A DNA stretch of 64,000 nt from Vicinamibacteria bacterium (lineage in GTDB: Bacteria; Acidobacteriota; Vicinamibacteria; Fen-336; JAGNNV01). Where the stretch lies: the NCBI GenBank assembly GCA_044229175.1, contig JBGATM010000001.1, positions 24,282 through 88,281 of the forward strand, given 5' to 3'. Positions 13,574-55,983 of this stretch are shown here, one piece after another (position 1 is the stretch's first letter; each line of letters starts with the position of its first letter). The position numbers and the translations under genes are program-made. Under the pieces are notes generated by a model. That model did no database searches. It saw only the letters and a list, made by a program, of their open reading frames with translations, and was not told where the DNA came from.

Positions 13574-13689
13574 TCCGTCGCTGGGACCGTCAGAACCGCG
13601 ACCGCCGCACTGCGAACCCCGCACCGCGAACCCGCCCGGTGAGCCACGCACAGCGCGTTACCCCACGACCAGGCTCGTGCTGTCCGTCC

Positions 13690-13766
13690 AGTATTCCCCT
13701 CACGTCATTGCGAGGAGGCCAGTCCGTCCGCTATCCGACGAAGCAACCCCCTCCCACCACTACCAA
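13690..13766. repeat. Dispersed intergenic repeat, copy A (~77 bp)
   Basis: It shares conserved blocks with copy B at about 27085: tcacgtcattgcgaggag, cgacgaagcaaccccctc and ccactaccaa, in the same order, spacing and orientation. Confidence 0.6.
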
Positions 13767-13817
13767 CCCGGGGCGTTTCTCCCAATCGCCACGTCCGAAG
13801 GACGTGAGCGCTCGCGG

Positions 13818-19430: not shown

Positions 19431-22400
19431 CTAGGGAAGCGGGACCGGACACGCTCCGGCGTTCGGGCCGAGCGCGGTGAAGGGTGTGTTCGTGATTCCG
19501 CTGACGCTGATGTCGTCGATGTCCCAGCCGGGAGCCCCGGTCGACTCGTCGGCGCCGACGCGGAAGCGGATCCGGACGTCCTGATTCGCGTAGGCGGTTC
19601 CGAGGTTCCGGGTCACCGTGGCGAAGTTGGGCCACCCGGTCATGCGGTTGACGAAGGCGGGCCGGCTGGCGCCGATCGGGGCCGAGGTTGAGGCGTTGGT
19701 GGAACCGTTGTAGGCGCCGACGCCGATGTCGACCCAGGTGGCCCCGCCGTCGGTGGTGAGCTCGACCACGCCGCCGTCCCAACCCCCGCCCTCGAATGCG
19801 AAGCGATGGGAGAAGGAGAGAATCAGCGGGTCGGTCCCCACATGCAGGATCGGTGAGACCAGGACCTGCTCGTCGGGAAGGTCGCCCTTCTCGCCATCGG
19901 TCTGCCCGTTGTTGTCCGGTCCCCAGAAGACGTGTCGCGTGGGCGACAGGGCTCGCCGCTGCCAGGCCGCGATATTGGGCGCGGTGGTCGGGTCGCCCAG
20001 GATCGACCAGCCGTGGTTCGCCGACTCGACCGACTCGGTGGACGAGGAAGCCGCGATTTCATCGTAGTTGACGCGGTGGGTCGAAACCACGTTGAAGGCG
20101 CCAGGCAGCCCAAGTTCGGGGGCGTCGATGGACAGGGTGAAGTCGGTCTGGTCCGGGCCGGCCGCGCCGCTCAGGGCCACCTTGATGAATCCCGTGCTCT
20201 CATCGTTCTTCTGGACCGGTGGGAAATGGAGAATGTTCCCCTCGGGGAAGGTGACGAGCGGATTGCTGGACGAGAGCGTGATCGTGACGTGGTTGACGTT
20301 GTTGGGACCCTGGTTCTTGAGGGTGACGGTCAGCCGCCCGGTTTCGCCATTGTCGAGGACGCCGTCATCGCAGGCGCCGTCATCGGTCAGCACCGCGTTC
20401 ACCAGTTCGAGCTGAGACAGTTCCCAGATTCCCCGGCCGTAGGTCGCGATCCGGATGAAACCGCCGTCTGGAGGCATGTAGATGTCGTTCACGCGCACGG
20501 TGGGAAGGCCGTTGCCGTAGGGTTCCCAGCTGTCGCCGCCATCGGTGGTGCGGTAGATCCCCACGTGGGTGGCCGCATAGATCGTGTTCCGCGCGGCGTC
20601 GCGCGGATCGAAGTAGACCCGGGTCACCGGCAGGTCGGGAAGGCCGGTCTGCTTCACCGCGTACGTGGCCGTCGACCACGGGGCGGCCGGACTGGCGATC
20701 GAAGCCTTGATCACCCGGACCGCGCCGGTGGCCTGGGCCACCGAGGTGATCCAGAGGTTCTGGTTGTCCTGCCAGGTCACGTTGGTCACGAAGCCCTGGT
20801 ACCCCGGCACCTTGGTGATGAGGTCGATGTCGGTCCAGGTCGCGCCGCCGTCGGTGGAAACGTCGATGAAACCGCCTCCGGCCCCGACCGCGATCCGGTT
20901 CAGATCGCTGGGGCTGACCCCGAGGTTGTATGGGCTCGAGCGGAAGCGCCGCGCGCTCGGCAGCCCCGGTGAGGTGGGAGCGATGGCGGAAGCGATTCGT
21001 GTCCAGCTGAGGCCGCCGTTGACGCTTCGCCATACCCGCGAGTTCGAGAAGTGGAAGAAGACGCGGCCGCTCGGATCCAGGCTCGCGGGAGCGGGAACGA
21101 TCGCAGTGAAGAAGCCGAAACCCACGTCGCTCAAGCCCGAAGTGGCCGAGGCCCAGTTTTGGAAAACCTCGGGAGGAGTGTTGCTGAGATTCGTCCTCAT
21201 GCTCGAACCCTGCGCGCTGCCGATGACGGTGTTGGTGTTCCCCTGGCTGTATGCCGTCCCCATGCCATCGCCGCCGATCACCTGGTTGTGGATGGTCCCG
21301 TTGTCGGTGCGAAGGCGGGTGCCGTTGTCCTGGGTGCCGCCGATGACCAGATTCGGGAACGCGGGATTGCCGGCGGCGGTGTAGTACAAGTGGGTGGCAA
21401 GACCGTTGTTCTTGTCGCTGCTGAAAGTGACGCCGTTGTCGGTGGTGATGTTGAGGCCGCCGTCGTTGCCCAGGATCACGGTGGGCGTCCCCGTGGTCTT
21501 GAACGCGGCGGCGTGATGGTCGGCGTGCGCGTAGGGGAGGGTGGGGAACTGGCTGTAGAGCCACCAGGTATTGAGGCTCCAGGTTCCCCCGCCATTGGTC
21601 GACTTCGCCGTGGCCAGGTTGCCGCCGATCCAGACAGTGTTGCGGGTGGCGTCCGTGGGATCCACCAGGACCATCTGGTCGTACCAGCACTGACTCTGGC
21701 AGATGTTCATGTTCGGCATCGAAGAGTTGGCATTGGTCGGGATCTTGGTCGAGTTCACGCCGTTCGCCACCCAGGTCTGTCCCCCGTCGGTCGAGCGGTA
21801 GACATCCTTCATCTCGGCGTCGCCCACCGTGCTCGAGTAGGCATAGACGACCGCGTCTCCAGGGACCGCGACCCCTAGCGTGGTTCGGCCGTTGGCGTTG
21901 AACACGCCTCCGGCGTTGCTGATCGGGGCCCAGGTGGCGCCGCGGTCGGTGGACCGGTAGAGGGTGGTCGCGAAAGTGCATCGCAGGCCGACATTGGCCG
22001 TCGCGCAGGGCTGAGCGGAGGCGAGCCACCCCGCGCTGGTGCGCTCGATGCTCCACACCGACTGGCCGGAGAAGACGGCGATGGCGCTGTACGTCCGGCC
22101 CTCGTCCGCCGATCGGTACAAGCCGTTGTCGGTGGCCACGAGCACGATGTCGCGGTTGGTGCTGGTGTCGACCTTCACGTCGCGAACCGAAACCGCATTT
22201 CCCAGTTCGATGATGGGCTCCCAGGAGACCCCGCCGTTTCGGGACTTCGTCATGGCCCCGCCCACCAGGATCTGGTCGTAGGGATCGCCGAGGCCGAGAT
22301 ACAGAGTGTTCGGATTGCTGCCGAAGGCGACCGAACCGCCTCCCGTGGTCGGCAGGTCGTCGGTCAGGACATTCCAGGTGGTGACGCTGGAGGTCCAGTT

Positions 22401-27013: not shown

Positions 27014-27084
27014 GATTCTTTTCCTCCGGAGGGACGCTCCATCTTACGAGCCCCGCGCCCCACCACCGAGCCCGGGCAGCGAGA

Positions 27085-27161
27085 AGTATCCCTCTCACGT
27101 CATTGCGAGGAGCCACTCCGTTTTGCAGTGCGACGAAGCAACCCCCTCTCGCCACTACCAA
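27085..27161. repeat. Dispersed intergenic repeat, copy B (~77 bp)
   Basis: See copy A at 13690. It lies in the divergent region between ggt and the downstream secreted-protein gene. Confidence 0.6.
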
Positions 27162-27189
27162 GCACGCCTCGGCCATTTATCCTCAACCC

Positions 27190-27900
27190 ATGATCCGCCT
27201 CTTCGTCATCCTGGGTGTCCTGCTCGCCGGAGCATCCAAGGCCGCGGCGCAGGAGCCTCCCCCCGCCCAGTGGCTGAGGCTCGATCCCCTGCCGGGGGAG
27301 ATGAAGCTCACCGCGCGCGAGAGTTTCGACGGCGTGCCGCCGCGTTTCGTCCTGCTCACCGACGGCTCGGTCTTCGTGGGGGGGCGCCGGGAGGTGCTGC
27401 GCGGTTTCCTCGACAAGACAGAGATGCAGGCCATCTCCACGCGACTCGACCTGGCGATGAAGTCCGTGGGCCGGGCCTCTCCGCCCACTCTCGTCATGGG
27501 CCAGGGCCCGGGTGAAGGCGAGGGTTCCGCCATCTTCAGGTTCTCGGCGCTGCTCGGTGCGCCCCTGCAGGTCGTGGTTATGGGCAGGCTCCCTCCGGCG
27601 GGCGGTCCGGCCCTGATGCCCCTGCCCGATTTCATCCGCTATCTCGTGGGGTTTCGCCATCCTTCGCTCAAGCCCTGGGATCCCTCCGAGTTCACGATGA
27701 TGGTCCGCGAGAAGACGCTGACGGGAGGCTGCCGCGCCCCGAAGGGGCTTCCTTCCCTCGCCCAGGCCGTGGGCGTGGAGACCACGGTATCCGAGAGGCT
27801 GACCCGGAGCTTCCCCACCGGCCCCGACATGACTCAGGTGTGCGAAGGTTCCAGGCGATACACGGTGGTGTTCAGGCCCCTCATCCCCGGGGGCCGCTAG
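27190..27900 (+). CDS. Hypothetical secreted protein
   Basis: Start at MIRLFVILGVLLAGASKAAAQEP (signal peptide). I recognise no family. Length is 236 aa. Confidence 0.5.
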   Translation: MIRLFVILGVLLAGASKAAAQEPPPAQWLRLDPLPGEMKLTARESFDGVPPRFVLLTDGSVFVGGRREVLRGFLDKTEMQAISTRLDLAMKSVGRASPPTLVMGQGPGEGEGSAIFRFSALLGAPLQVVVMGRLPPAGGPALMPLPDFIRYLVGFRHPSLKPWDPSEFTMMVREKTLTGGCRAPKGLPSLAQAVGVETTVSERLTRSFPTGPDMTQVCEGSRRYTVVFRPLIPGGR

Positions 27901-39087: not shown

Positions 39088-41052
39088 CTACTTCGCACTC
39101 GTCGTCCCGAAGAGATGCTTGTCGAACCAGTCGAGATTCTCCTGCAGGGCGTGTCGAAGAGCCTTGGGCTTGTTGAGGGAATGGCCGAAGCCCTTGTAGA
39201 GGGCGAGCCGTGTTTCGACCCCCTGATCGCGCAGGCCCTGGTACAGCTCGAAGGCGTCGGAAACCGGGACTCGCTGATCCGCGTCGCCGTGCTGAATGAG
39301 GGTCGGCGCCTTCGCTCCCTTGATATAGGTCATGGGCGAAGTCTTTCGGTAGATCTCGGGGTCGTCCCACGGCGTCGCCTTCAGGTACTGGCGGGTGAAG
39401 GGATGGATGTCGGTGCTCACGTAATACGTGACCCAGTTCGAGATCCCCGCGCCCACCGAGACCGCGCGGAACCGCGCCGAGTCGTGGGTGGTGAGGAACG
39501 CCGAAATGTAGCCGCCCTGGCTCCAGCCCATGACTCCTACCTTCGTCTTGTCCACGATGCCCTTCGCGATCAGGCTGTCGATTCCGGAGATCACGTCCCA
39601 GGCATCGCCCACCCCGAGATTGCGGACGTTCAGCGACCGGAAAGCTTCGCCGTAACCAGCGCTGCCCCGATAGTTGGGCTCGAGGATGAGGGCGCCCTTC
39701 GCGAGCCACGCCTCCATCGGGTAGACGTAGGTCGCGCCGAAGAGGCTCGGCCGTGACACCCCGGTCGGGCCGCCGTGGATGATCACGAGGAGCGGCGCGG
39801 CTGACCCTGCCTTGTATCCCGCGGGCTTTCGCAGCACGCCCTCGATGGTGGCGCCGTCCGTGCTCTTCCACGACACCACCTCGCTGGTTCCGAGGGTCAG
39901 TGAGCCCAGCTCACCGCCCAGGTCCGACAGCTTCTTCGCGGGGCCTCCCGACGCCGCACCCGCGAACACTTCCGGGTAGGCGCTCGCCGAGCTTCCCACG
40001 AAGGCGAGGCTGAGGGCGTCGCCGCTGAACGCGAACCCCGTGGCGATGGGCCGATCGAGGGGAACGCGCGCGACCGCCTTTCCGGCCGGGTCGACCTTGA
40101 AGAGGCCGGCCTCCGTCTTCTGATTGGCGGCGAGGAAGATCCCGTTCCTGGTCCACGCCACCAGACGCAGATCCTCGTCGAAGGAAGCGGTGATCGGAGT
40201 GATCGTCCCGCCCGCGGCCGGGATGGTCGCCACCTTGCCGTTCCGGTAGTAGTAGGACGCGACTTCCTGCATCGCGGTGGCGAAAGCGATCTGCCGGCCA
40301 TCCGGCGAGTAGTGGGGATCGCCGTCCGGGCCGTCCTGGCTCACGAGCGGACGGACGGTCGCGGATGCGGCGTCGACGACCGAGATGTTCGAGGTGACGC
40401 TGAACGAGGGGTCGGTGCTCTGAGTGAAGTCGAAGGCGATCTCGCGATCGTCCGGGGACCAGTCGAAAGCGCCCACCACGAAGGTGCCCGAGGTCAGACG
40501 CTTCGTGACCCCGCTCTCCACCTCGATGACGTGGAGGTGCGCGGGGTTCGTGGCCTCGTCCTCGATGGTCACGTCGCCATAGAGCTTCTGCCTTTCCTTC
40601 ATGGCCTCGGTCTTCGGGTCGGAAGCGACGAAGGCGATCCGCTTCCCATCGTGCGAATAGCCGAAGCGCGACACCCCTTCCTCGGCGCTCGTGAGCTTGC
40701 GCGCCTCGCCCCCCGAAAGGCTCATCACATAGACCTGCCGCTTCCCGTCGCGATCGGAGAGGAACGCCAGCGACGAACCGTCCGGCGAGAAGGCCGGGGC
40801 ATCCGAGGACTTCTTCGATTGCGTGAACGCACGCGACGTTCCGGACCTGACGTCAGCGAGCCAGATCTCGTTCTCGAACGTGTTCTCGTCCCAGTTGGCC
40901 TTGCGGACCACGTAGGCCACGCGGGAGCCGTCTATAGAGATCGCGGGCTGGGAAACCCGCTTGAGCGCCACCATCTCGTCGATGGTGGGCACATGCGTGT
41001 CGGCGAGCGCGAGAGTGGGAAGGAAGATCGCCAGCAGCAAAAGTCGTTTCAT
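39088..41052 (-). CDS. S9-family serine peptidase (prolyl oligopeptidase / acylaminoacyl-peptidase type), secreted
   Basis: Start at MKRLLLLAIFLPTLALA (aa 253 of the ORF). It has an N-terminal beta-propeller and a C-terminal alpha/beta hydrolase with GWSQGG nucleophile. Its start overlaps the upstream paralog's stop (ATGA). Confidence 0.85.
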   Translation of the reverse strand: MKRLLLLAIFLPTLALADTHVPTIDEMVALKRVSQPAISIDGSRVAYVVRKANWDENTFENEIWLADVRSGTSRAFTQSKKSSDAPAFSPDGSSLAFLSDRDGKRQVYVMSLSGGEARKLTSAEEGVSRFGYSHDGKRIAFVASDPKTEAMKERQKLYGDVTIEDEATNPAHLHVIEVESGVTKRLTSGTFVVGAFDWSPDDREIAFDFTQSTDPSFSVTSNISVVDAASATVRPLVSQDGPDGDPHYSPDGRQIAFATAMQEVASYYYRNGKVATIPAAGGTITPITASFDEDLRLVAWTRNGIFLAANQKTEAGLFKVDPAGKAVARVPLDRPIATGFAFSGDALSLAFVGSSASAYPEVFAGAASGGPAKKLSDLGGELGSLTLGTSEVVSWKSTDGATIEGVLRKPAGYKAGSAAPLLVIIHGGPTGVSRPSLFGATYVYPMEAWLAKGALILEPNYRGSAGYGEAFRSLNVRNLGVGDAWDVISGIDSLIAKGIVDKTKVGVMGWSQGGYISAFLTTHDSARFRAVSVGAGISNWVTYYVSTDIHPFTRQYLKATPWDDPEIYRKTSPMTYIKGAKAPTLIQHGDADQRVPVSDAFELYQGLRDQGVETRLALYKGFGHSLNKPKALRHALQENLDWFDKHLFGTTSAK

Positions 41053-43016
41053 TTCACACCCCATTTCGCGAACCATGCGAGTTCTCTCTCGATCTTGTCG
41101 ACCTGGTGGTTGGGCTCGCGGAAGCCGTGCGGCTCGCGCGGATAGGTCACGAACTCGGTCGGCACGCCCAGCTTCTTCAGGCCCAGATACAGTTCCTGCC
41201 CCTGGCTCGTGGGCACGCGGTCGTCGGCCTGGCCGTGGAGGATGAGGGTCGGCGTCTTCACCTTCGTGATCCCGGCCATGGCCGAGGCTGCCCAGTAGGT
41301 GTCCGCCTTCGCATAGGGCGGCCCGCCGAAATAGTCGTCGAGGGTCGAGGGGATGTCGTTCGTCCCGTACATGCTGAAGAGGTTGGTGAGGGCGGCGCCG
41401 CAGCTCGCGGCCTTGAAGCGGGTGGTCTGGGTGATCGACCACGCGCACATGTAGCCGCCGTAGCTCCATCCGTGCAGGGCCATGCGGTCCGGATCGGCGA
41501 CGCCCTTCGCGACGAGAGAGTCGACACCGCTCATGATGTCCTGGAAGTCGCCCCTGCCCCAGTCGTTCACGTTCAGCCTCTGGAAGGCATCGCCGTAGCC
41601 GGTGCTGCCGCGGAAGTTCGGCTGGAACACCGCATATCCCCGTCCGGTGAGAATGTGGTGATAGTTGTTCATGGCGGCGGGGAAGGTGAGGGTGTAGGCA
41701 CCCGAGGGCCCACCATGAACGTGCACGATGAGCGGCAGCTTCTTTCCCGCCGAGCCTTCCGGTCGGTGGAGCAGGCCCTCGATCTCGCGGCCATCCGGCG
41801 CCTTCCACCGCACCACCTCCGTGACGGAGAGAGCGAAGTCGGAGAGCTTCGGATTGAGCGTGGTGAGTCGCCGGGCCGCCGTGGCGGCGATGGGAAGCGA
41901 ACCCGGATCGACGCTTTGCACGTAGACGTCGCTCGGCGAGCGCGGATCCTGACGCAGGTAAACGAGCGAGGGAGCGCTCGTCGCCAGTCCGGGCGAGGAC
42001 ACGGTGAAAGCGCCGCTCATCAGCGCCCGGGGGGCGCCACCCCTGGTCGCTACGGAATAAAGCCGACCTTCGACCCCCACGGTGGCGGTGAAGAGGAGGG
42101 AAGCGCCATCGCCCGACCAGAGAATGGTTCCCGGGTTCAGGTCCACCGGGGTCAGCCGCGTGATGGCGCCCCCGGCCCGGGGAATGATGGCGATCGCGTC
42201 GGTCCCGGTGCGCGGCAGCTTTCCGTCGCGGGTGAGGAAGGCGATGGTCCGGCCGTCGGGAGAGTAGCGCGGCGACGAATCCGCGCCGGAGTTCTCGAAG
42301 AGAACTCTCGGCGCCCCACCCGTCGAGGGCACGATCACGATGTCCGAGGCGCTGCCGTCATCGGCCTTCGGGGTCGGCCTCCGGACCGCAGCGATCTCGG
42401 CGCCGTCTGGAGAAATGCGCGCATCGGAAAGAGTGAAAGCGCCTTCGGTCAATCGCTTCGTTTCTTTGGTCGCCACCTCGATCCGATGCAGATGGGTCAT
42501 GCGGAAGTCCTGATCCACCACGCGTTCATCGTCCTTGGCCTTCGTCCGCTTCTCCTCGTCCTCCGACGGCGCGTCGGCGGAAAGGGCCGCGATCCACGCG
42601 CCATCCGGGCTCCAGGCGAAGCCCGAGACCCCGCCCTTCAGGTCGGAGAGTTTCCAAGGCTCGCCGCCGCGCACGTCGGCGAGGAAGATCTGAGGTTTCT
42701 CTTCACGCTCGGAGATGAACGCGAGCTTCGTGCCGTCCGGGGAGAACTGGGGCGCGCGGTCGTTCTTCGGATGCCGGGTGAAGCGAAAGGGCTCGCCGCC
42801 CCCGGCGCTCACGAGCCAGATGTCGGTCTGGTAGACGTTCTCCTTCGCGTCCACTTCGCTGACCACGAACGCGACCGTGCGCCCATCCGGCGAGACCTGC
42901 GGGTCCTGGGCGGCGCGAATGGTCGGAACATCCTTCGGCTCCATCACGCGGTCGCCCGCGTGGGCGTAGGGCATGGCCGAAAGCAACAGAAGTGCGCTCG
43001 TCAGACATCTCTTCAT
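41049..43016 (-). CDS. S9-family serine peptidase, tandem paralog
   Basis: Signal peptide MKRCLTSALLLLSAMPYAHA, with GWSYGG nucleophile. Confidence 0.85.
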   Translation of the reverse strand: MKRCLTSALLLLSAMPYAHAGDRVMEPKDVPTIRAAQDPQVSPDGRTVAFVVSEVDAKENVYQTDIWLVSAGGGEPFRFTRHPKNDRAPQFSPDGTKLAFISEREEKPQIFLADVRGGEPWKLSDLKGGVSGFAWSPDGAWIAALSADAPSEDEEKRTKAKDDERVVDQDFRMTHLHRIEVATKETKRLTEGAFTLSDARISPDGAEIAAVRRPTPKADDGSASDIVIVPSTGGAPRVLFENSGADSSPRYSPDGRTIAFLTRDGKLPRTGTDAIAIIPRAGGAITRLTPVDLNPGTILWSGDGASLLFTATVGVEGRLYSVATRGGAPRALMSGAFTVSSPGLATSAPSLVYLRQDPRSPSDVYVQSVDPGSLPIAATAARRLTTLNPKLSDFALSVTEVVRWKAPDGREIEGLLHRPEGSAGKKLPLIVHVHGGPSGAYTLTFPAAMNNYHHILTGRGYAVFQPNFRGSTGYGDAFQRLNVNDWGRGDFQDIMSGVDSLVAKGVADPDRMALHGWSYGGYMCAWSITQTTRFKAASCGAALTNLFSMYGTNDIPSTLDDYFGGPPYAKADTYWAASAMAGITKVKTPTLILHGQADDRVPTSQGQELYLGLKKLGVPTEFVTYPREPHGFREPNHQVDKIERELAWFAKWGVK

Positions 43017-55145: not shown

Positions 55146-55430
55146 ATGCAGGTCGGTCGAGTTGTCGGCACTCTCGTCGCCACCCGCAAGGACGAGCGCC
55201 TGGTGGGGACGAAGCTCCTGGTCGTTCGCGTCATGGATCCCGCGTTCAAGGAAGAGCAGGGCTACGTGGTCGCGGTCGACACCGTGAACGCCGGGATCGG
55301 CGACCGGGTCATGCTCGTGGCCGGTTCATCGGCCCGCCTCGCCCAGGGCATGAAGGACGCGCCGGTCGATGCCGCCATCGTCGGAGTGGTCGATCAGGTC
55401 GAACTGGTCAAGTCCGCGACCAAGGCCTGA
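55146..55430 (+). CDS. BMC vertex protein, BMC-P (EutN/CcmL/PduN family), paralog 1
   Basis: MQVGRVVGTLVATRKDERLVGTKLLVV...DAAIVGVVD is the EutN_CcmL fold signature. Confidence 0.9.
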   Translation: MQVGRVVGTLVATRKDERLVGTKLLVVRVMDPAFKEEQGYVVAVDTVNAGIGDRVMLVAGSSARLAQGMKDAPVDAAIVGVVDQVELVKSATKA

Positions 55431-55433
55431 TCC

Positions 55434-55703
55434 ATGCAGCTCGGGATCGTGTGCGGGAACCTGGTGGCGAGCCGTAAGGACGAGCGCCTCGAGGGAATCA
55501 ACCTCCTGGTCATCCAGCCCATCCAGCCTGACGGCTCCGCCACCGGCAAGACGCTCGTCGCCACGGACGCGGTGGGCGCGGGTCCGGGCGAGAGGGTCTT
55601 CTGGGTCAAGTCGAAGGAAGCGGCAAACCCCTTCGAGCCCGTCGAGGTGCCCACCGACGCCACCATCGTGGGCATCGTGGACCTCGTCAACGTGGAGGCC
55701 TGA
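55434..55703 (+). CDS. BMC vertex protein, BMC-P, paralog 2
   Basis: MQLGIVCGNLVASRKDERLEGINLLVIQP...DATIVGIVD. It starts 4 bp after paralog 1. Confidence 0.9.
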   Translation: MQLGIVCGNLVASRKDERLEGINLLVIQPIQPDGSATGKTLVATDAVGAGPGERVFWVKSKEAANPFEPVEVPTDATIVGIVDLVNVEA

Positions 55704-55707
55704 AGGG

Positions 55708-55983
55708 ATGTTGATCGGGCGGGTGATCGGCAACGTCGTGGCCACGAAGAAGAACCTCAAGCTCGACGGCGAGAAGCTCCTGCTCGTGCAGCCCCTCGAA
55801 CTCTCGGGGGCGGCGAAGGGAACTCCCATCATCGCCATCGATCGAATGGGGGCCGGGCCGAAAGAGCGGGTCCTGTACACCCAGGATGGCCGCACCGCGC
55901 AGCAGGTCCTGGGACGGGGTGTCGCCGGGGTCGACGCCGCCATCCTCGGAGTGATCGACGAGATCGATTTCCGCCATGGATGA
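55708..55983 (+). CDS. BMC vertex protein, BMC-P, paralog 3
   Basis: Start at MLIGRVIGNVVATKKNLKLDGEKLLLVQP (aa 114 of the ORF); ...DAAILGVID. Confidence 0.85.
   Translation: MLIGRVIGNVVATKKNLKLDGEKLLLVQPLELSGAAKGTPIIAIDRMGAGPKERVLYTQDGRTAQQVLGRGVAGVDAAILGVIDEIDFRHG

What the first reader, a model, noticed from the sequence alone, without database searches (positions are those of the whole stretch)
13690..13766. Dispersed ~77-bp intergenic repeat family (two copies, 13.4 kb apart)
- Copies at about 13690..13766 and 27085..27161 share three perfectly conserved blocks (tcacgtcattgcgaggag / cgacgaagcaaccccctc / ccactaccaa) in the same order, spacing and orientation. The segments between them vary.
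- Copy A lies between convergent genes (GWxTD protein and pta). Copy B lies in a divergent promoter region (ggt and a secreted-protein gene). Position relative to genes is therefore not conserved, which argues against a cis-regulatory leader.
- It looks instead like a REP/MITE-like dispersed element or a small structured RNA gene.
- I could not find convincing terminal inverted repeats or a strong internal hairpin by eye.
Basis: seen in the sequence. Interest (0 to 1): 0.5.

Follow-up and report, generated by a model that had tools for sequence, protein, structure and literature searches.

The report
REP-like hairpin repeat, Ssn-nuclease type
The two look-alike stretches are real copies of a short dispersed DNA repeat found in many bacterial phyla; elsewhere its units bracket the gene of a small Ssn-family nuclease that cuts single-stranded DNA at such hairpins, so this is a new sequence class of a kind of element first described in 2025, not a new kind.

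Summary
The two copies share three exact blocks, are 79% identical over 77 nt, and are the only copies in the window. A family profile extends each to about 105 nt (13665-13770 and 27062-27164).

They are not an RNA gene. The core, GTCATTGCGAGGAG-[variable segment]-CGACGAAGCAA, occurs exactly in more than 120 genome stretches from many phyla. It is often present as inverted doublets, and its inner stem covaries.

In 6 loci found through the repeat, and in Mucilaginibacter loci found through the protein, inverted units bracket a ~90-aa GIY-YIG gene. That protein is 49% identical to homologues bracketed by Neisseria-type NTS repeats.

The closest known system is Ssn/SRM (Chenal et al. 2025). Ssn nucleases bind such hairpins as single-stranded DNA and cut just upstream. 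The GTC before the palindrome and the C after it, which that paper identifies as important, are kept here. However, none of 135 units matches the published SRM search pattern.

The window copies are singlets of a mosaic subfamily seen in Vicinamibacteria. The copy A site is empty in close relatives. Copy B is kept in a relative but with its inner patch exchanged.

No cognate nuclease gene was found in the window or next to this subfamily. Verdict: new member of a known kind, moderate interest.

The parts
13665..13770 (+). Copy A, full singlet of the mosaic element (left linker, core unit, tail)
   Evidence: Family-profile nhmmer hit, E 4e-24. Sequence read. It lies in the 244-nt gap between the convergent GWxTD-like and pta genes. 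The same gap is 8-14 nt and empty in relatives L260, L261 and L262.
13703..13717 (+). Copy A head and 5' half of the core: CGTCAT + TGCGAGGAG. GTC precedes the TTGC half-palindrome.
   Evidence: Exact in both window copies and in 135 units from many phyla. The head fits HGTCWY of the published SRM pattern.
13718..13735 (+). Copy A inner variable segment GCCAGTCCGTCCGCTATC, closed by a G..C pair
   Evidence: It differs from copy B. There are 73 distinct inner segments among 86 subfamily units. The closing pair is C-G in 33 copies and G-C in 3. It matches the inner segment at the copy B site of relative L132 at 16 of 18 positions.
13736..13766 (+). Copy A 3' half of the core (CGACGAAGCAA, then C) and subfamily tail CCCCCTCCCACCACTACCAA
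   Evidence: Block 2 is exact in both copies. The tail is conserved in the subfamily consensus. In doublets the tail forms the centre of the palindrome.
27062..27164 (+). Copy B, full singlet, 26 nt upstream of the ATG at 27190 and divergent from ggt
   Evidence: nhmmer hit, E 5e-26. Sequence read. It is identical in four other assemblies, L255-L258, and present at the same site in relative L132.
27098..27112 (+). Copy B head and 5' half of the core (CGTCATTGCGAGGAG)
27113..27130 (+). Copy B inner variable segment CCACTCCGTTTTGCAGTG, closed by a C..G pair
   Evidence: In L132 it is replaced: 5 of 18 identical without gaps, about 10 of 18 with a 1-nt offset. The three blocks are 46/46 identical and the flanks are 85-89% identical.
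27131..27161 (+). Copy B 3' half of the core and tail (CGACGAAGCAACCCCCTCTCGCCACTACCAA)

Best explanation
Each copy is a non-autonomous singlet of a REP-like hairpin repeat.

**Anatomy**
- The core is cGTCA-TTGC-GAGGAG-[free inner stem-loop]-CGACGAA-GCAA-C.
- In this lineage (Vicinamibacteria) the core sits inside a mosaic of about 105 nt, with a left linker and a CCACTACCAA tail.
- Two such halves in inverted order form palindromes of about 170-180 nt elsewhere.

**Shown here**
- Family membership of the two copies.
- The hairpin with a covarying inner stem.
- The bracketing of Ssn-type genes by units of this class.
- Gain and loss of the element at orthologous sites.

**Inferred mechanism**
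- The core is the DNA site of a cognate Ssn-family GIY-YIG nuclease (cd10448 type, about 90 aa).
- When the + strand is single-stranded (transformation, replication, conjugation, repair), the nuclease would bind the hairpin through the conserved head, short stem and flanking C. It would nick a few bases 5' of CGTCAT, near 13700 and 27095.
- The same nuclease, whose gene elsewhere lies between two inverted units, would account for the spread and homogenisation of the repeats. This would work through an IS200/IS605- or REP/RAYT-like single-strand route, or through break-induced gene conversion.
- That these two copies are cut in this genome today is also inferred.
For: **The core is shared across phyla**
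Hosts include Chloroflexota, Pseudomonadota (Bradyrhizobium, Tisiphia), Bacteroidota, Zixibacteria, Ignavibacteriota, Patescibacteria, Omnitrophota, Gemmatimonadota and Vicinamibacteria.
- It also hits 31 viral contigs.

**It is a hairpin on the GTCAT strand**
- In 35 distinct units with a 9-nt insert, 93% of cells pair, against 83% in shuffles.
- 39 cells change on both sides, against 11.8 +/- 2.5 in shuffles (0 of 500 reach the observed value).
- Slid controls pair at 22-50%.
- 15 G-T pairs would be A-C mismatches on the other strand.
- Terminal stems of at least 4 bp occur in 22% of 125 inserts, against 1.3% in shuffles.
- 82 of 135 units have an inverted partner within 60 nt.

**Nuclease link, starting from the repeat**
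- 6 loci found by the repeat pattern carry a PF01541 GIY-YIG ORF next to the units, and in 5 of them the ORF lies between units (L031, L081, L109, L173, L234; L144 is cut off by the contig end).
- No other neighbouring protein recurs.

**Nuclease link, starting from the protein**
- In Mucilaginibacter mallensis (L247) the gene lies between GTCATTGCGAGGAGGAACGACGAAGCAACC... and its reverse complement.
- A profile of these proteins pulls 33 viral-contig loci.
  - About 21 are bracketed by GTCAT-headed inverted repeats of at least 24 nt (my count from the listing).
  - These include exact NTS-type repeats and one of our type.
  - 15 of 33 have a published-pattern SRM nearby, 12 on both sides.
- P0118, which is bracketed by our type, is 49% identical (E 9e-28) to an NTS-bracketed homologue.

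**Published biochemistry (PMC11893778)**
- SsnA binds NTS only as ssDNA and only on one strand, and cuts upstream.
- The three bases before the palindrome matter most for cutting.
- The C after the palindrome matters most for binding.
- Loop identity is free and the loop can be extended.
- Our core keeps GTC before the palindrome, C after it, and a free inner segment.

**Dynamics in this lineage**
- The copy A site is empty in L260, L261 and L262, and holds a full doublet in L259.
- At the copy B site the blocks are 46/46 identical in L132 while the flanks are 85-89% identical. The inner patch there matches copy A's.
Against: - No Ssn-type gene is present in the 64-kb window, nor next to any of 86 units with this subfamily's tail (tblastn). 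The only GIY-YIG on such a contig (L174) is a YhbQ-like one, 1 kb away and not bracketed.
- The two window singlets do not fold better than shuffles as ssDNA (z -0.4 and +0.1 on the + strand). NTS gives z -4.6.
- Only a 4-bp TTGC/GCAA stem plus one closing pair is conserved in the subfamily.
- None of 135 canonical units, nor the window copies, matches the published SRM degenerate pattern.
- Mobility driven by Ssn is only a hypothesis, even in the source paper.
- No target-site duplication or exact insertion boundary could be defined.
- Head orientation relative to the gene is not uniform across Ssn loci. L308 and L320 have heads pointing inward.
Confidence: 0.68

Rival explanations
1. Inert relics. 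The copies belong to the family, but in this genome they are decaying fossils with no partner nuclease and no present activity or function.
For: - They are singlets with weak folding.
- The inner stem is degenerate compared with canonical units.
- No Ssn gene was found in the window or near subfamily units.
- 53 of 86 sampled subfamily units are singlets.
Against: - At the orthologous copy B site the three blocks are 46/46 identical while the flanks are 85-89% identical.
- Blocks 1 and 2 are invariant in 38 aligned subfamily copies, although the search pattern itself required much of them.
- The inner patch was exchanged as a block rather than by point decay.
- Presence differs between close relatives, which points to recent turnover.
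Confidence: 0.2
2. A classical REP/REPIN, mobilised by a RAYT (Y1 HUH transposase of the IS200/IS605 superfamily) rather than by a GIY-YIG nuclease.
For: The gross anatomy is the same: extragenic imperfect palindromes, singlets and inverted doublets, BIME-like mosaics, and a preference for gene 3' ends. Convergent gaps account for 12 of 25 fully resolved contexts and divergent gaps for none.
Against: - No recurrent neighbour other than the GIY-YIG ORF was found by all-against-all clustering of ORFs near units in 240 loci.
- The head is GTCAT, not the GTAG of REPs (the GTAG head is from my own knowledge of Nunvar 2010 and Ton-Hoang 2012).
- REPIN/RAYT systems are described as mostly vertically inherited within lineages (abstracts listed). 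This core is identical across phyla.
Confidence: 0.05
3. A small structured RNA gene or cis-acting RNA element: sRNA, leader, or 3'-UTR stabiliser/terminator.
For: - The minus strand folds somewhat better than shuffles as RNA (z -2.0 for both copies).
- Many copies lie just after gene ends.
- REP-type hairpins are known to be used secondarily as mRNA stabilisers (general knowledge).
Against: - No Rfam match at the gathering threshold or at E<=10, for the window copy or for a canonical doublet.
- No sigma-70-like promoter and no intrinsic terminator at either copy.
- The subfamily consensus fold is weak (-5.2 and -3.9 kcal/mol) and built from invariant pairs.
- There is no orientation bias in tandem gene contexts (5 versus 8).
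- Units occur as inverted doublets and bracket a nuclease gene.
- SsnA does not act on RNA.
Confidence: 0.04
4. A MITE derived from a DDE-type insertion sequence, cut and pasted through its terminal inverted repeats.
For: - It is short, non-coding and dispersed, and its presence differs between relatives.
- Doublets look like two long inverted ends.
Against: - Singlets, which are the majority, have no terminal inverted repeats.
- No target-site duplication was seen at the filled versus empty site.
- The only coding partner found is a 90-aa GIY-YIG protein, not a DDE transposase.
Confidence: 0.03

Closest known systems
NTS / SRM hairpin repeats and the Ssn family of GIY-YIG site-specific ssDNA nucleases (Chenal et al., Nat Commun 2025, PMC11893778)
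   Same: - Extragenic, directional hairpin repeat of 20-50 nt with a CGTCAT head and a C after the palindrome.
- Many copies in the sequence collections.
- Units in inverted order bracket an approximately 90-aa single-domain GIY-YIG gene.
- The proteins bracketed by our units are 36-54% identical to those bracketed by exact NTS repeats.
- The loop is free to vary and to be extended.
- It is widespread across phyla.
   Different: - The palindrome is only TTGC/GCAA (ATTGC/GCAAT in canonical units).
- It is followed by a conserved purine-rich internal loop (GAGGAG / CGACGAA) and a second, covarying stem. NTS has a single 8-9 bp stem.
- The published SRM search pattern matches 0 of 135 units.
- Folding is much weaker than for NTS.
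- In Vicinamibacteria the unit is embedded in a ~105-nt mosaic.
- The cognate nuclease for this subfamily was not found.
- No biochemistry exists for this class.
REP / BIME / REPIN elements with RAYT transposases (Nunvar 2010; Bertels and Rainey 2011, PMC3116915; Ton-Hoang 2012)
   Same: - Extragenic imperfect palindromes, singlets and inverted doublets.
- Mosaic clusters with linker motifs.
- Enrichment at gene 3' ends.
- A single-copy nuclease gene bracketed by the repeats.
- Action on single-stranded hairpins.
   Different: - The partner enzyme is a GIY-YIG nuclease, not a Y1 HUH transposase.
- The head is GTCAT, not GTAG.
- The core sequence is shared across phyla instead of being lineage-specific.
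Neisseria dRS3 repeats (ATTCCC-N8-GGGAAT)
   Same: A short palindromic intergenic repeat, part of which is the NTS. It has been proposed as a substrate for recombination between copies, which would fit the patch exchange seen at copy B.
   Different: The sequence is different and the host range is limited to Neisseria. dRS3 itself is symmetric, whereas the element here is directional.
Subterminal hairpins of IS200/IS605 elements
   Same: Imperfect hairpins recognised on one DNA strand, with cleavage at a short distance from the hairpin. The analogy is drawn in the Ssn paper itself.
   Different: No TnpA or TnpB gene is associated. Left and right ends are not differentiated. The units are far more numerous than the gene.

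Membership tests
SRM/NTS repeats of Ssn nucleases | 5' head HGTCWY, with GTC as the three bases before the palindrome (main determinant of cutting) | tested here: met
   CGTCAT is at 13703-13708 and 27098-27103 and is invariant in 135 canonical units.
SRM/NTS repeats of Ssn nucleases | Cytosine immediately after the palindrome (main determinant of binding) | tested here: met
   GCAA-C in both window copies. GCAAT-C in at least 90% of the canonical units with a 9-nt insert.
SRM/NTS repeats of Ssn nucleases | Semi-palindrome that forms a hairpin on the head-bearing strand | tested here: inconclusive
   Canonical class: the hairpin is supported by covariation and by terminal-stem enrichment. Window singlets: only a 4-bp TTGC/GCAA stem plus one covarying closing pair, and ssDNA folding no better than shuffles.
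SRM/NTS repeats of Ssn nucleases | Match to the published search pattern HGTCWYN(0-2)YYVSBRHN(0-5)WNVSBRGN(0-2)RNCYNB | tested here: not met
   My regex of the pattern finds NTS. It finds none of the window copies, none of 135 canonical units, and nothing in the window. Loci whose Ssn gene is bracketed by our type have zero pattern hits.
SRM/NTS repeats of Ssn nucleases | Units flank an ssn (cd10448-type GIY-YIG) gene, typically on both sides | tested here: met
   Met for the sequence class: L031, L081, L109, L173, L234, L247 and L305. Pfam GIY-YIG. 49% identity to an NTS-bracketed homologue. cd10448 itself could not be scored with the libraries available. Not shown for the Vicinamibacteria subfamily.
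SRM/NTS repeats of Ssn nucleases | Mostly extragenic and present in many copies | tested here: met
   51 of 57 subfamily singlets lie outside called genes. Both collection scans stopped at the 120-stretch limit. There are 2 copies in this 64-kb window. The copy number per genome could not be counted.
SRM/NTS repeats of Ssn nucleases | The same genome encodes an Ssn homologue | not testable with these tools
   There is none in the window. The rest of the source genome is not available. Look-ups by window proteins returned only contigs of up to 2.7 kb, or nothing.
SRM/NTS repeats of Ssn nucleases | Bound and cut only as ssDNA, on one strand, a few bases upstream | not testable with these tools
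   This needs biochemistry. There is indirect support only: 15 G-T pairs in the inner stem are tolerated on the head-bearing strand.
REP/REPIN-RAYT | A Y1 (RAYT) transposase gene bracketed by the repeats, and a GTAG head | tested here: not met
   Clustering of ORFs near units in 240 loci gave no recurrent protein other than GIY-YIG. The head is GTCAT.
Rfam RNA families | Match to a curated covariance model | tested here: not met
   No hit at the gathering threshold in the window. No hit at E<=10 around copy A. For a canonical doublet, only sub-threshold generic hairpin (miRNA and isrG) hits.
MITE of a DDE insertion sequence | Terminal inverted repeats plus a target-site duplication | tested here: not met
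   Singlets lack inverted ends. No duplication is visible at the filled versus empty pta/GWxTD site, although the flanks there have diverged.

The most novel reading that the evidence does not exclude
The TTGCGAGGAG...CGACGAAGCAA units may be a separate specificity class of Ssn sites, spread widely by horizontal transfer.

- In this class, recognition would rest on a conserved purine-rich internal loop and a 4-5 bp stem.
- The inner arm would be a free 'cargo' position of 8 to more than 38 nt.
- The class escapes the published SRM search pattern, so current censuses of Ssn sites would miss much of the system in Chloroflexota, Bacteroidota, Acidobacteriota, candidate phyla and others.
- In Vicinamibacteria the units are built into BIME-like mosaics, and their inner patch is exchanged between copies. 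Nuclease-triggered gene conversion may therefore still be going on.
Probability: 0.3. Interest if true: 0.6.

Novelty: new member of a known kind. Interest (0 to 1): 0.4.

Why it matters
- **Census of the system.** Ssn nucleases are the only described site-specific nucleases that act only on single-stranded DNA, and their sites have been catalogued with one degenerate pattern. A class of sites that shares the key determinants but escapes that pattern, and that is exact in many phyla, widens the known range of enzyme/site pairs. It also offers a natural example of a site with a freely replaceable inner arm, which is relevant to the programmable-cleavage uses proposed for Ssn.
- **Annotation.** It explains a very common source of spurious short ORFs. 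Translations such as '..HCEE..DEAI..' and '..DCF..PRND..' appear in the ORF lists.
- **This genome.** It marks two intergenic spots as repeat insertions rather than regulatory RNA.

Tried and rejected
- **Rfam.** Searched the window at the gathering threshold, copy A at E<=10, and a canonical doublet at E<=10. Nothing relevant.
- **Literature by sequence or peptide strings.** Only primer coincidences.
- **Literature by keyword.** 'GIY-YIG' with REPIN/RAYT, COG2827/YhbQ, or terminal inverted repeats gave nothing relevant. 'GIY-YIG' plus 'extragenic' found the Ssn paper.
- **Strict GIY-YIG regular expression.** A first pass found nothing because it was too narrow. ORF clustering then found the genes.
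- **Conserved neighbours.** Apart from the GIY-YIG ORF, only spurious translations of the repeat itself or unrelated housekeeping genes recur.
- **Source genome.**
  - The copy B neighbour protein is on record only on contigs of up to 2.7 kb.
  - The pta ORF as I delimited it is not on record.
- **Target-site duplication.** The filled and empty pta/GWxTD sites are too diverged in the flanks to show one.
- **Tail as a flanking direct repeat.** Only 4 of 38 copies reach 11 of 14 matches, although a similar motif is visible by eye about 45 nt upstream. Left unresolved.
- **Promoter/terminator scans at both copies.** Nothing.
- **Other GTCAT-headed hairpins or published-pattern SRMs in the window.** There are no published-pattern hits (0.9 expected by chance), and the five GTCAT-headed hairpins found are unrelated to this family and look incidental.
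- **PDB.** Only two NMR structures of UPF0213 proteins (1zg2, 1ywl), with no DNA complex.
- **NCBIfam.** No family for these proteins.

Full report
**1. The observation**

The two copies are real and sit where reported.
- They form a 77-nt direct pair, 79% identical without gaps (D6).
- Three blocks are exact in both: 13700-13717 / 27095-27112, 13736-13753 / 27131-27148, and 13757-13766 / 27152-27161.
- Allowing 3 mismatches, block 1 (tested as a 17-mer) and block 2 occur only at these two places. Chance expectation is 0.27 and 0.13.
- A profile of 38 related copies finds only these two in the window and extends them to 13665-13770 and 27062-27164.
- pta homologues carry the source name Vicinamibacteria.

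**2. A core shared across phyla**

- Hosts include Anaerolineae and other Chloroflexota, Bradyrhizobium, Solimonas, Inquilinus, a Tisiphia endosymbiont, Sphingobacterium, Zixibacteria, Ignavibacteriota, Patescibacteria, Peregrinibacteria, Omnitrophota, Gemmatimonadota, Opitutae, Thermodesulfovibrionales and Vicinamibacteria.
- The pattern also hit 31 viral contigs.
- The canonical unit is GTCATTGCGAGGAG, then a variable self-complementary insert, then CGACGAAGCAATC.
- 82 of 135 units have an inverted partner within 60 nt, so doublets are common.
- Among 125 distinct inserts, terminal stems of at least 4 bp occur in 22%, against 1.3% of shuffles.
- On 35 distinct units with a 9-nt insert, I tested the structure ATTGC/GCAAT plus a 4-bp inner stem:
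  - it pairs in 93% of cells (83% in shuffles; 22-50% when partners are slid);
  - 39 cells change on both sides, against 11.8 +/- 2.5 in shuffles (0 of 500 reach this);
  - 15 G-T pairs would be A-C mismatches on the opposite strand.
- The unit is therefore a hairpin, read on the strand that carries the GTCAT head.
- No Rfam family matches either the window copy or a canonical doublet.

**3. The subfamily in the window**

- Of 156 units, 86 carry the window's CCACTACCA-type tail, with 73 distinct inner segments.
- The consensus is ..CCCCCnCACG TCATTGCGAGGAG CCAGTCCGTTnGnnnn GCGACGAAGCAACCCCCTCCCACCACTACCA...
- 27 units sit in tail-to-tail doublets that form palindromes of about 170-180 nt (for example L135, L126, L145, L149, L223, L231 and L259). 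53 are clear singlets like the window copies.
- Head-to-head pairs and several kinds of left linker also occur. The family is a BIME-like mosaic.
- 51 of 57 singlets lie outside called genes. Convergent gaps account for 12 of 25 fully resolved contexts and divergent gaps for none. Tandem contexts show no orientation bias, 5 versus 8. Copy B's divergent position is therefore unusual for the family.
- The consensus fold of the subfamily keeps only TTGC/GCAA and a closing pair of the inner segment. That pair is C-G in 33 copies and G-C in 3, and copy A is among the 3.
- As ssDNA, the window singlets fold no better than shuffles, whereas NTS gives z -4.6.
- There is no promoter-like or terminator-like site at either copy.

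**4. Turnover at the two sites**

Copy A site:
- Orthologous pta/GWxTD gaps are 8-14 nt and empty in L260, L261 and L262 (pta 85-88% identical).
- L259 (pta 90% identical) carries a full doublet.
- L263 carries an unrelated insert.
- The element was therefore gained in this lineage.

Copy B site:
- It is identical in four other assemblies.
- In the relative L132 the element is at the same site.
- Flanks are 75/84 and 46/54 identical, and the three blocks are 46/46 identical.
- The inner segment is exchanged: 5 of 18 identical without gaps, about 10 of 18 with a 1-nt offset, with the closing pair swapped.
- The L132 inner segment equals window copy A's at 16 of 18 positions.
- This looks like patch replacement between copies, with the conserved blocks acting as homology arms. 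That reading is an inference.

**5. The partner gene**

- All-against-all clustering of ORFs near units found no recurrent neighbour except a ~90-aa GIY-YIG ORF.
- In L031, L081, L109, L173 and L234 the ORF lies between units, and in L144 it lies next to units on a contig that ends inside the gene.
- Starting from the protein, the closest homologues are in Mucilaginibacter. In M. mallensis the gene lies between GTCATTGCGAGGAGGAACGACGAAGCAACCTCGTCGC and its reverse complement.
- A profile of these proteins retrieved 33 viral-contig loci chosen without regard to repeats.
  - About 21 are bracketed by GTCAT-headed inverted repeats of at least 24 nt (my count from the listing).
  - These include CGTCATTCCCGCGAAGGCGGGAATCCAG, GTCATCCCAGCGAAAGCTGGGA, GTCATGGCCGGGC.. 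and one of our type.

**6. Comparison with what is known**

The first of those repeats is the Neisseria NTS. Chenal et al. 2025 (PMC11893778) report the following:
- The GIY-YIG family Ssn (cd10448) binds NTS only as ssDNA and only on one strand, and cuts a few bases upstream.
- The three bases before the palindrome govern cutting, and the C after it governs binding.
- Loop identity is free and the loop can be extended.
- 71% of homologues have an 'SRM' nearby and 42% have one on both sides.
- The NTS-ssnA-NTS layout suggests an IS-like origin. This is stated only as a hypothesis.

My results against that description:
- 15 of 33 viral loci have a published-pattern SRM within 400 nt, and 12 have one on both sides.
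- A protein bracketed by our units is 49% identical to an NTS-bracketed one.
- Our core keeps the GTC and the C and has a free inner arm.
- It fails the published degenerate pattern in 135 of 135 units.
- Loci with our type have no pattern hit.
- It has a different build: a short outer stem, a conserved purine-rich internal loop, and a second covarying stem.
- The paper's SRM alignment came from 29 genomes of 4 phyla, and its main text does not mention Bacteroidota, Acidobacteriota or Chloroflexota. Its supplements were not available.
- An older survey treated these stand-alone prokaryotic GIY-YIG proteins as Slx1-like, vertically inherited enzymes (PMC1564403).
- PDB holds only two UPF0213 NMR structures.

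**7. Verdict**

The finding is a genuine dispersed repeat. Its best-supported identity is an Ssn-related hairpin repeat of a sequence class not covered by the published motif, present here as two singlets of a mosaic subfamily seen in Vicinamibacteria.

| Status | Claim |
|---|---|
| Shown | Family membership |
| Shown | Hairpin with covariation in the canonical class |
| Shown | Bracketing of Ssn-type genes by the class |
| Shown | Gain/loss and patch exchange at the two sites |
| Inferred | A cognate Ssn exists in this genome |
| Inferred | It cuts the + strand just 5' of CGTCAT |
| Inferred | It drives spread or conversion of the repeats |

The main weaknesses are three:
- no nuclease gene has been found for this subfamily;
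- the singlets fold weakly;
- there is no biochemistry for this class.

It is a new member of a known, recently described kind, of moderate interest.

Noticed in passing
window 13790-13806: A perfect 7-bp hairpin, cacgtcc-gaa-ggacgtg, lies between copy A and the pta stop codon. It shares CACGTC with the element's head and has no T-run. It could be a remnant of a lost right half or an unrelated stem-loop.
   Followed up: partly
window 13682-13693 and 13722-13733: Copy A carries GTCCGTCC twice in direct order, once in the left linker and once in the inner segment. In copy B, GCAGCGAGAAGTATCC in the left linker resembles GCAGTGCGACGAAGCAACC further in. The half-element may therefore be an old internal duplication.
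   Followed up: partly
L132 1928-2010 versus window 27062-27164: At the orthologous site in a relative, the conserved blocks are identical, but the last ~9 nt of the inner segment and its closing pair are replaced by the version found in window copy A (16/18). This suggests gene conversion between dispersed copies.
   Followed up: yes
L263 3500-3655 (pta/GWxTD gap of a relative): The same convergent gap holds an unrelated insert: the palindrome ctaggggggccagacacggacccggcccccctag, plus a terminator-like hairpin followed by a T-run. The gap appears to be a repeated landing place.
   Followed up: no
L120 1180-1960 (Bradyrhizobium): An Ssn-like GIY-YIG gene (1429-1692) is bracketed by a different inverted repeat, cgtcgccccggcgaaggccggggcccataaccac. 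The canonical TTGCGAGG-type units in Bradyrhizobium carry a 36-nt insert, CTCGCGACAAAATTGCAAAGCAATTTTGCGCTGAAG.
   Followed up: no
L152, L166, L201, L224, L234, L237 (metagenome loci): A further sub-type has the inner hairpin ..CCGCGAATAGCGG.. and the tail GCAACCCCAGTT. In L234 it directly precedes a GIY-YIG gene. L192, L217 and L237 run on to a shared '..ACAACCCATGAAC' that looks like a conserved gene start.
   Followed up: no
L248 1490-1510: The called start codon of the GIY-YIG gene is the ATG inside the unit's terminal CTCGCAATGAC. Several GIY-YIG copies with their doublets lie in tandem on this contig.
   Followed up: no
L174 2487-2711: A contig with a Vicinamibacteria-type unit also encodes a YhbQ-like GIY-YIG protein, 1 kb from the unit and not bracketed by repeats. 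It is probably a different clade from Ssn.
   Followed up: partly
window 19719-21971, 40281-42905, 55146-55785: These are direct repeat families of 57, 40 and 78 nt with 60-75% identity, 3 to 5 copies each. I assume they are protein repeat domains but did not check the reading frames. They are unrelated to the finding.
   Followed up: no
L001-L120 (ORF lists): Translations of the repeat give recurring spurious ORFs, with motifs such as HCEE..DEAI / SLRG..RRSNP on one strand and DCF..PRND / ..LAMT on the other. Gene callers sometimes fuse these to real genes, for example to the N-terminus of an ABC ATPase in L053.
   Followed up: no
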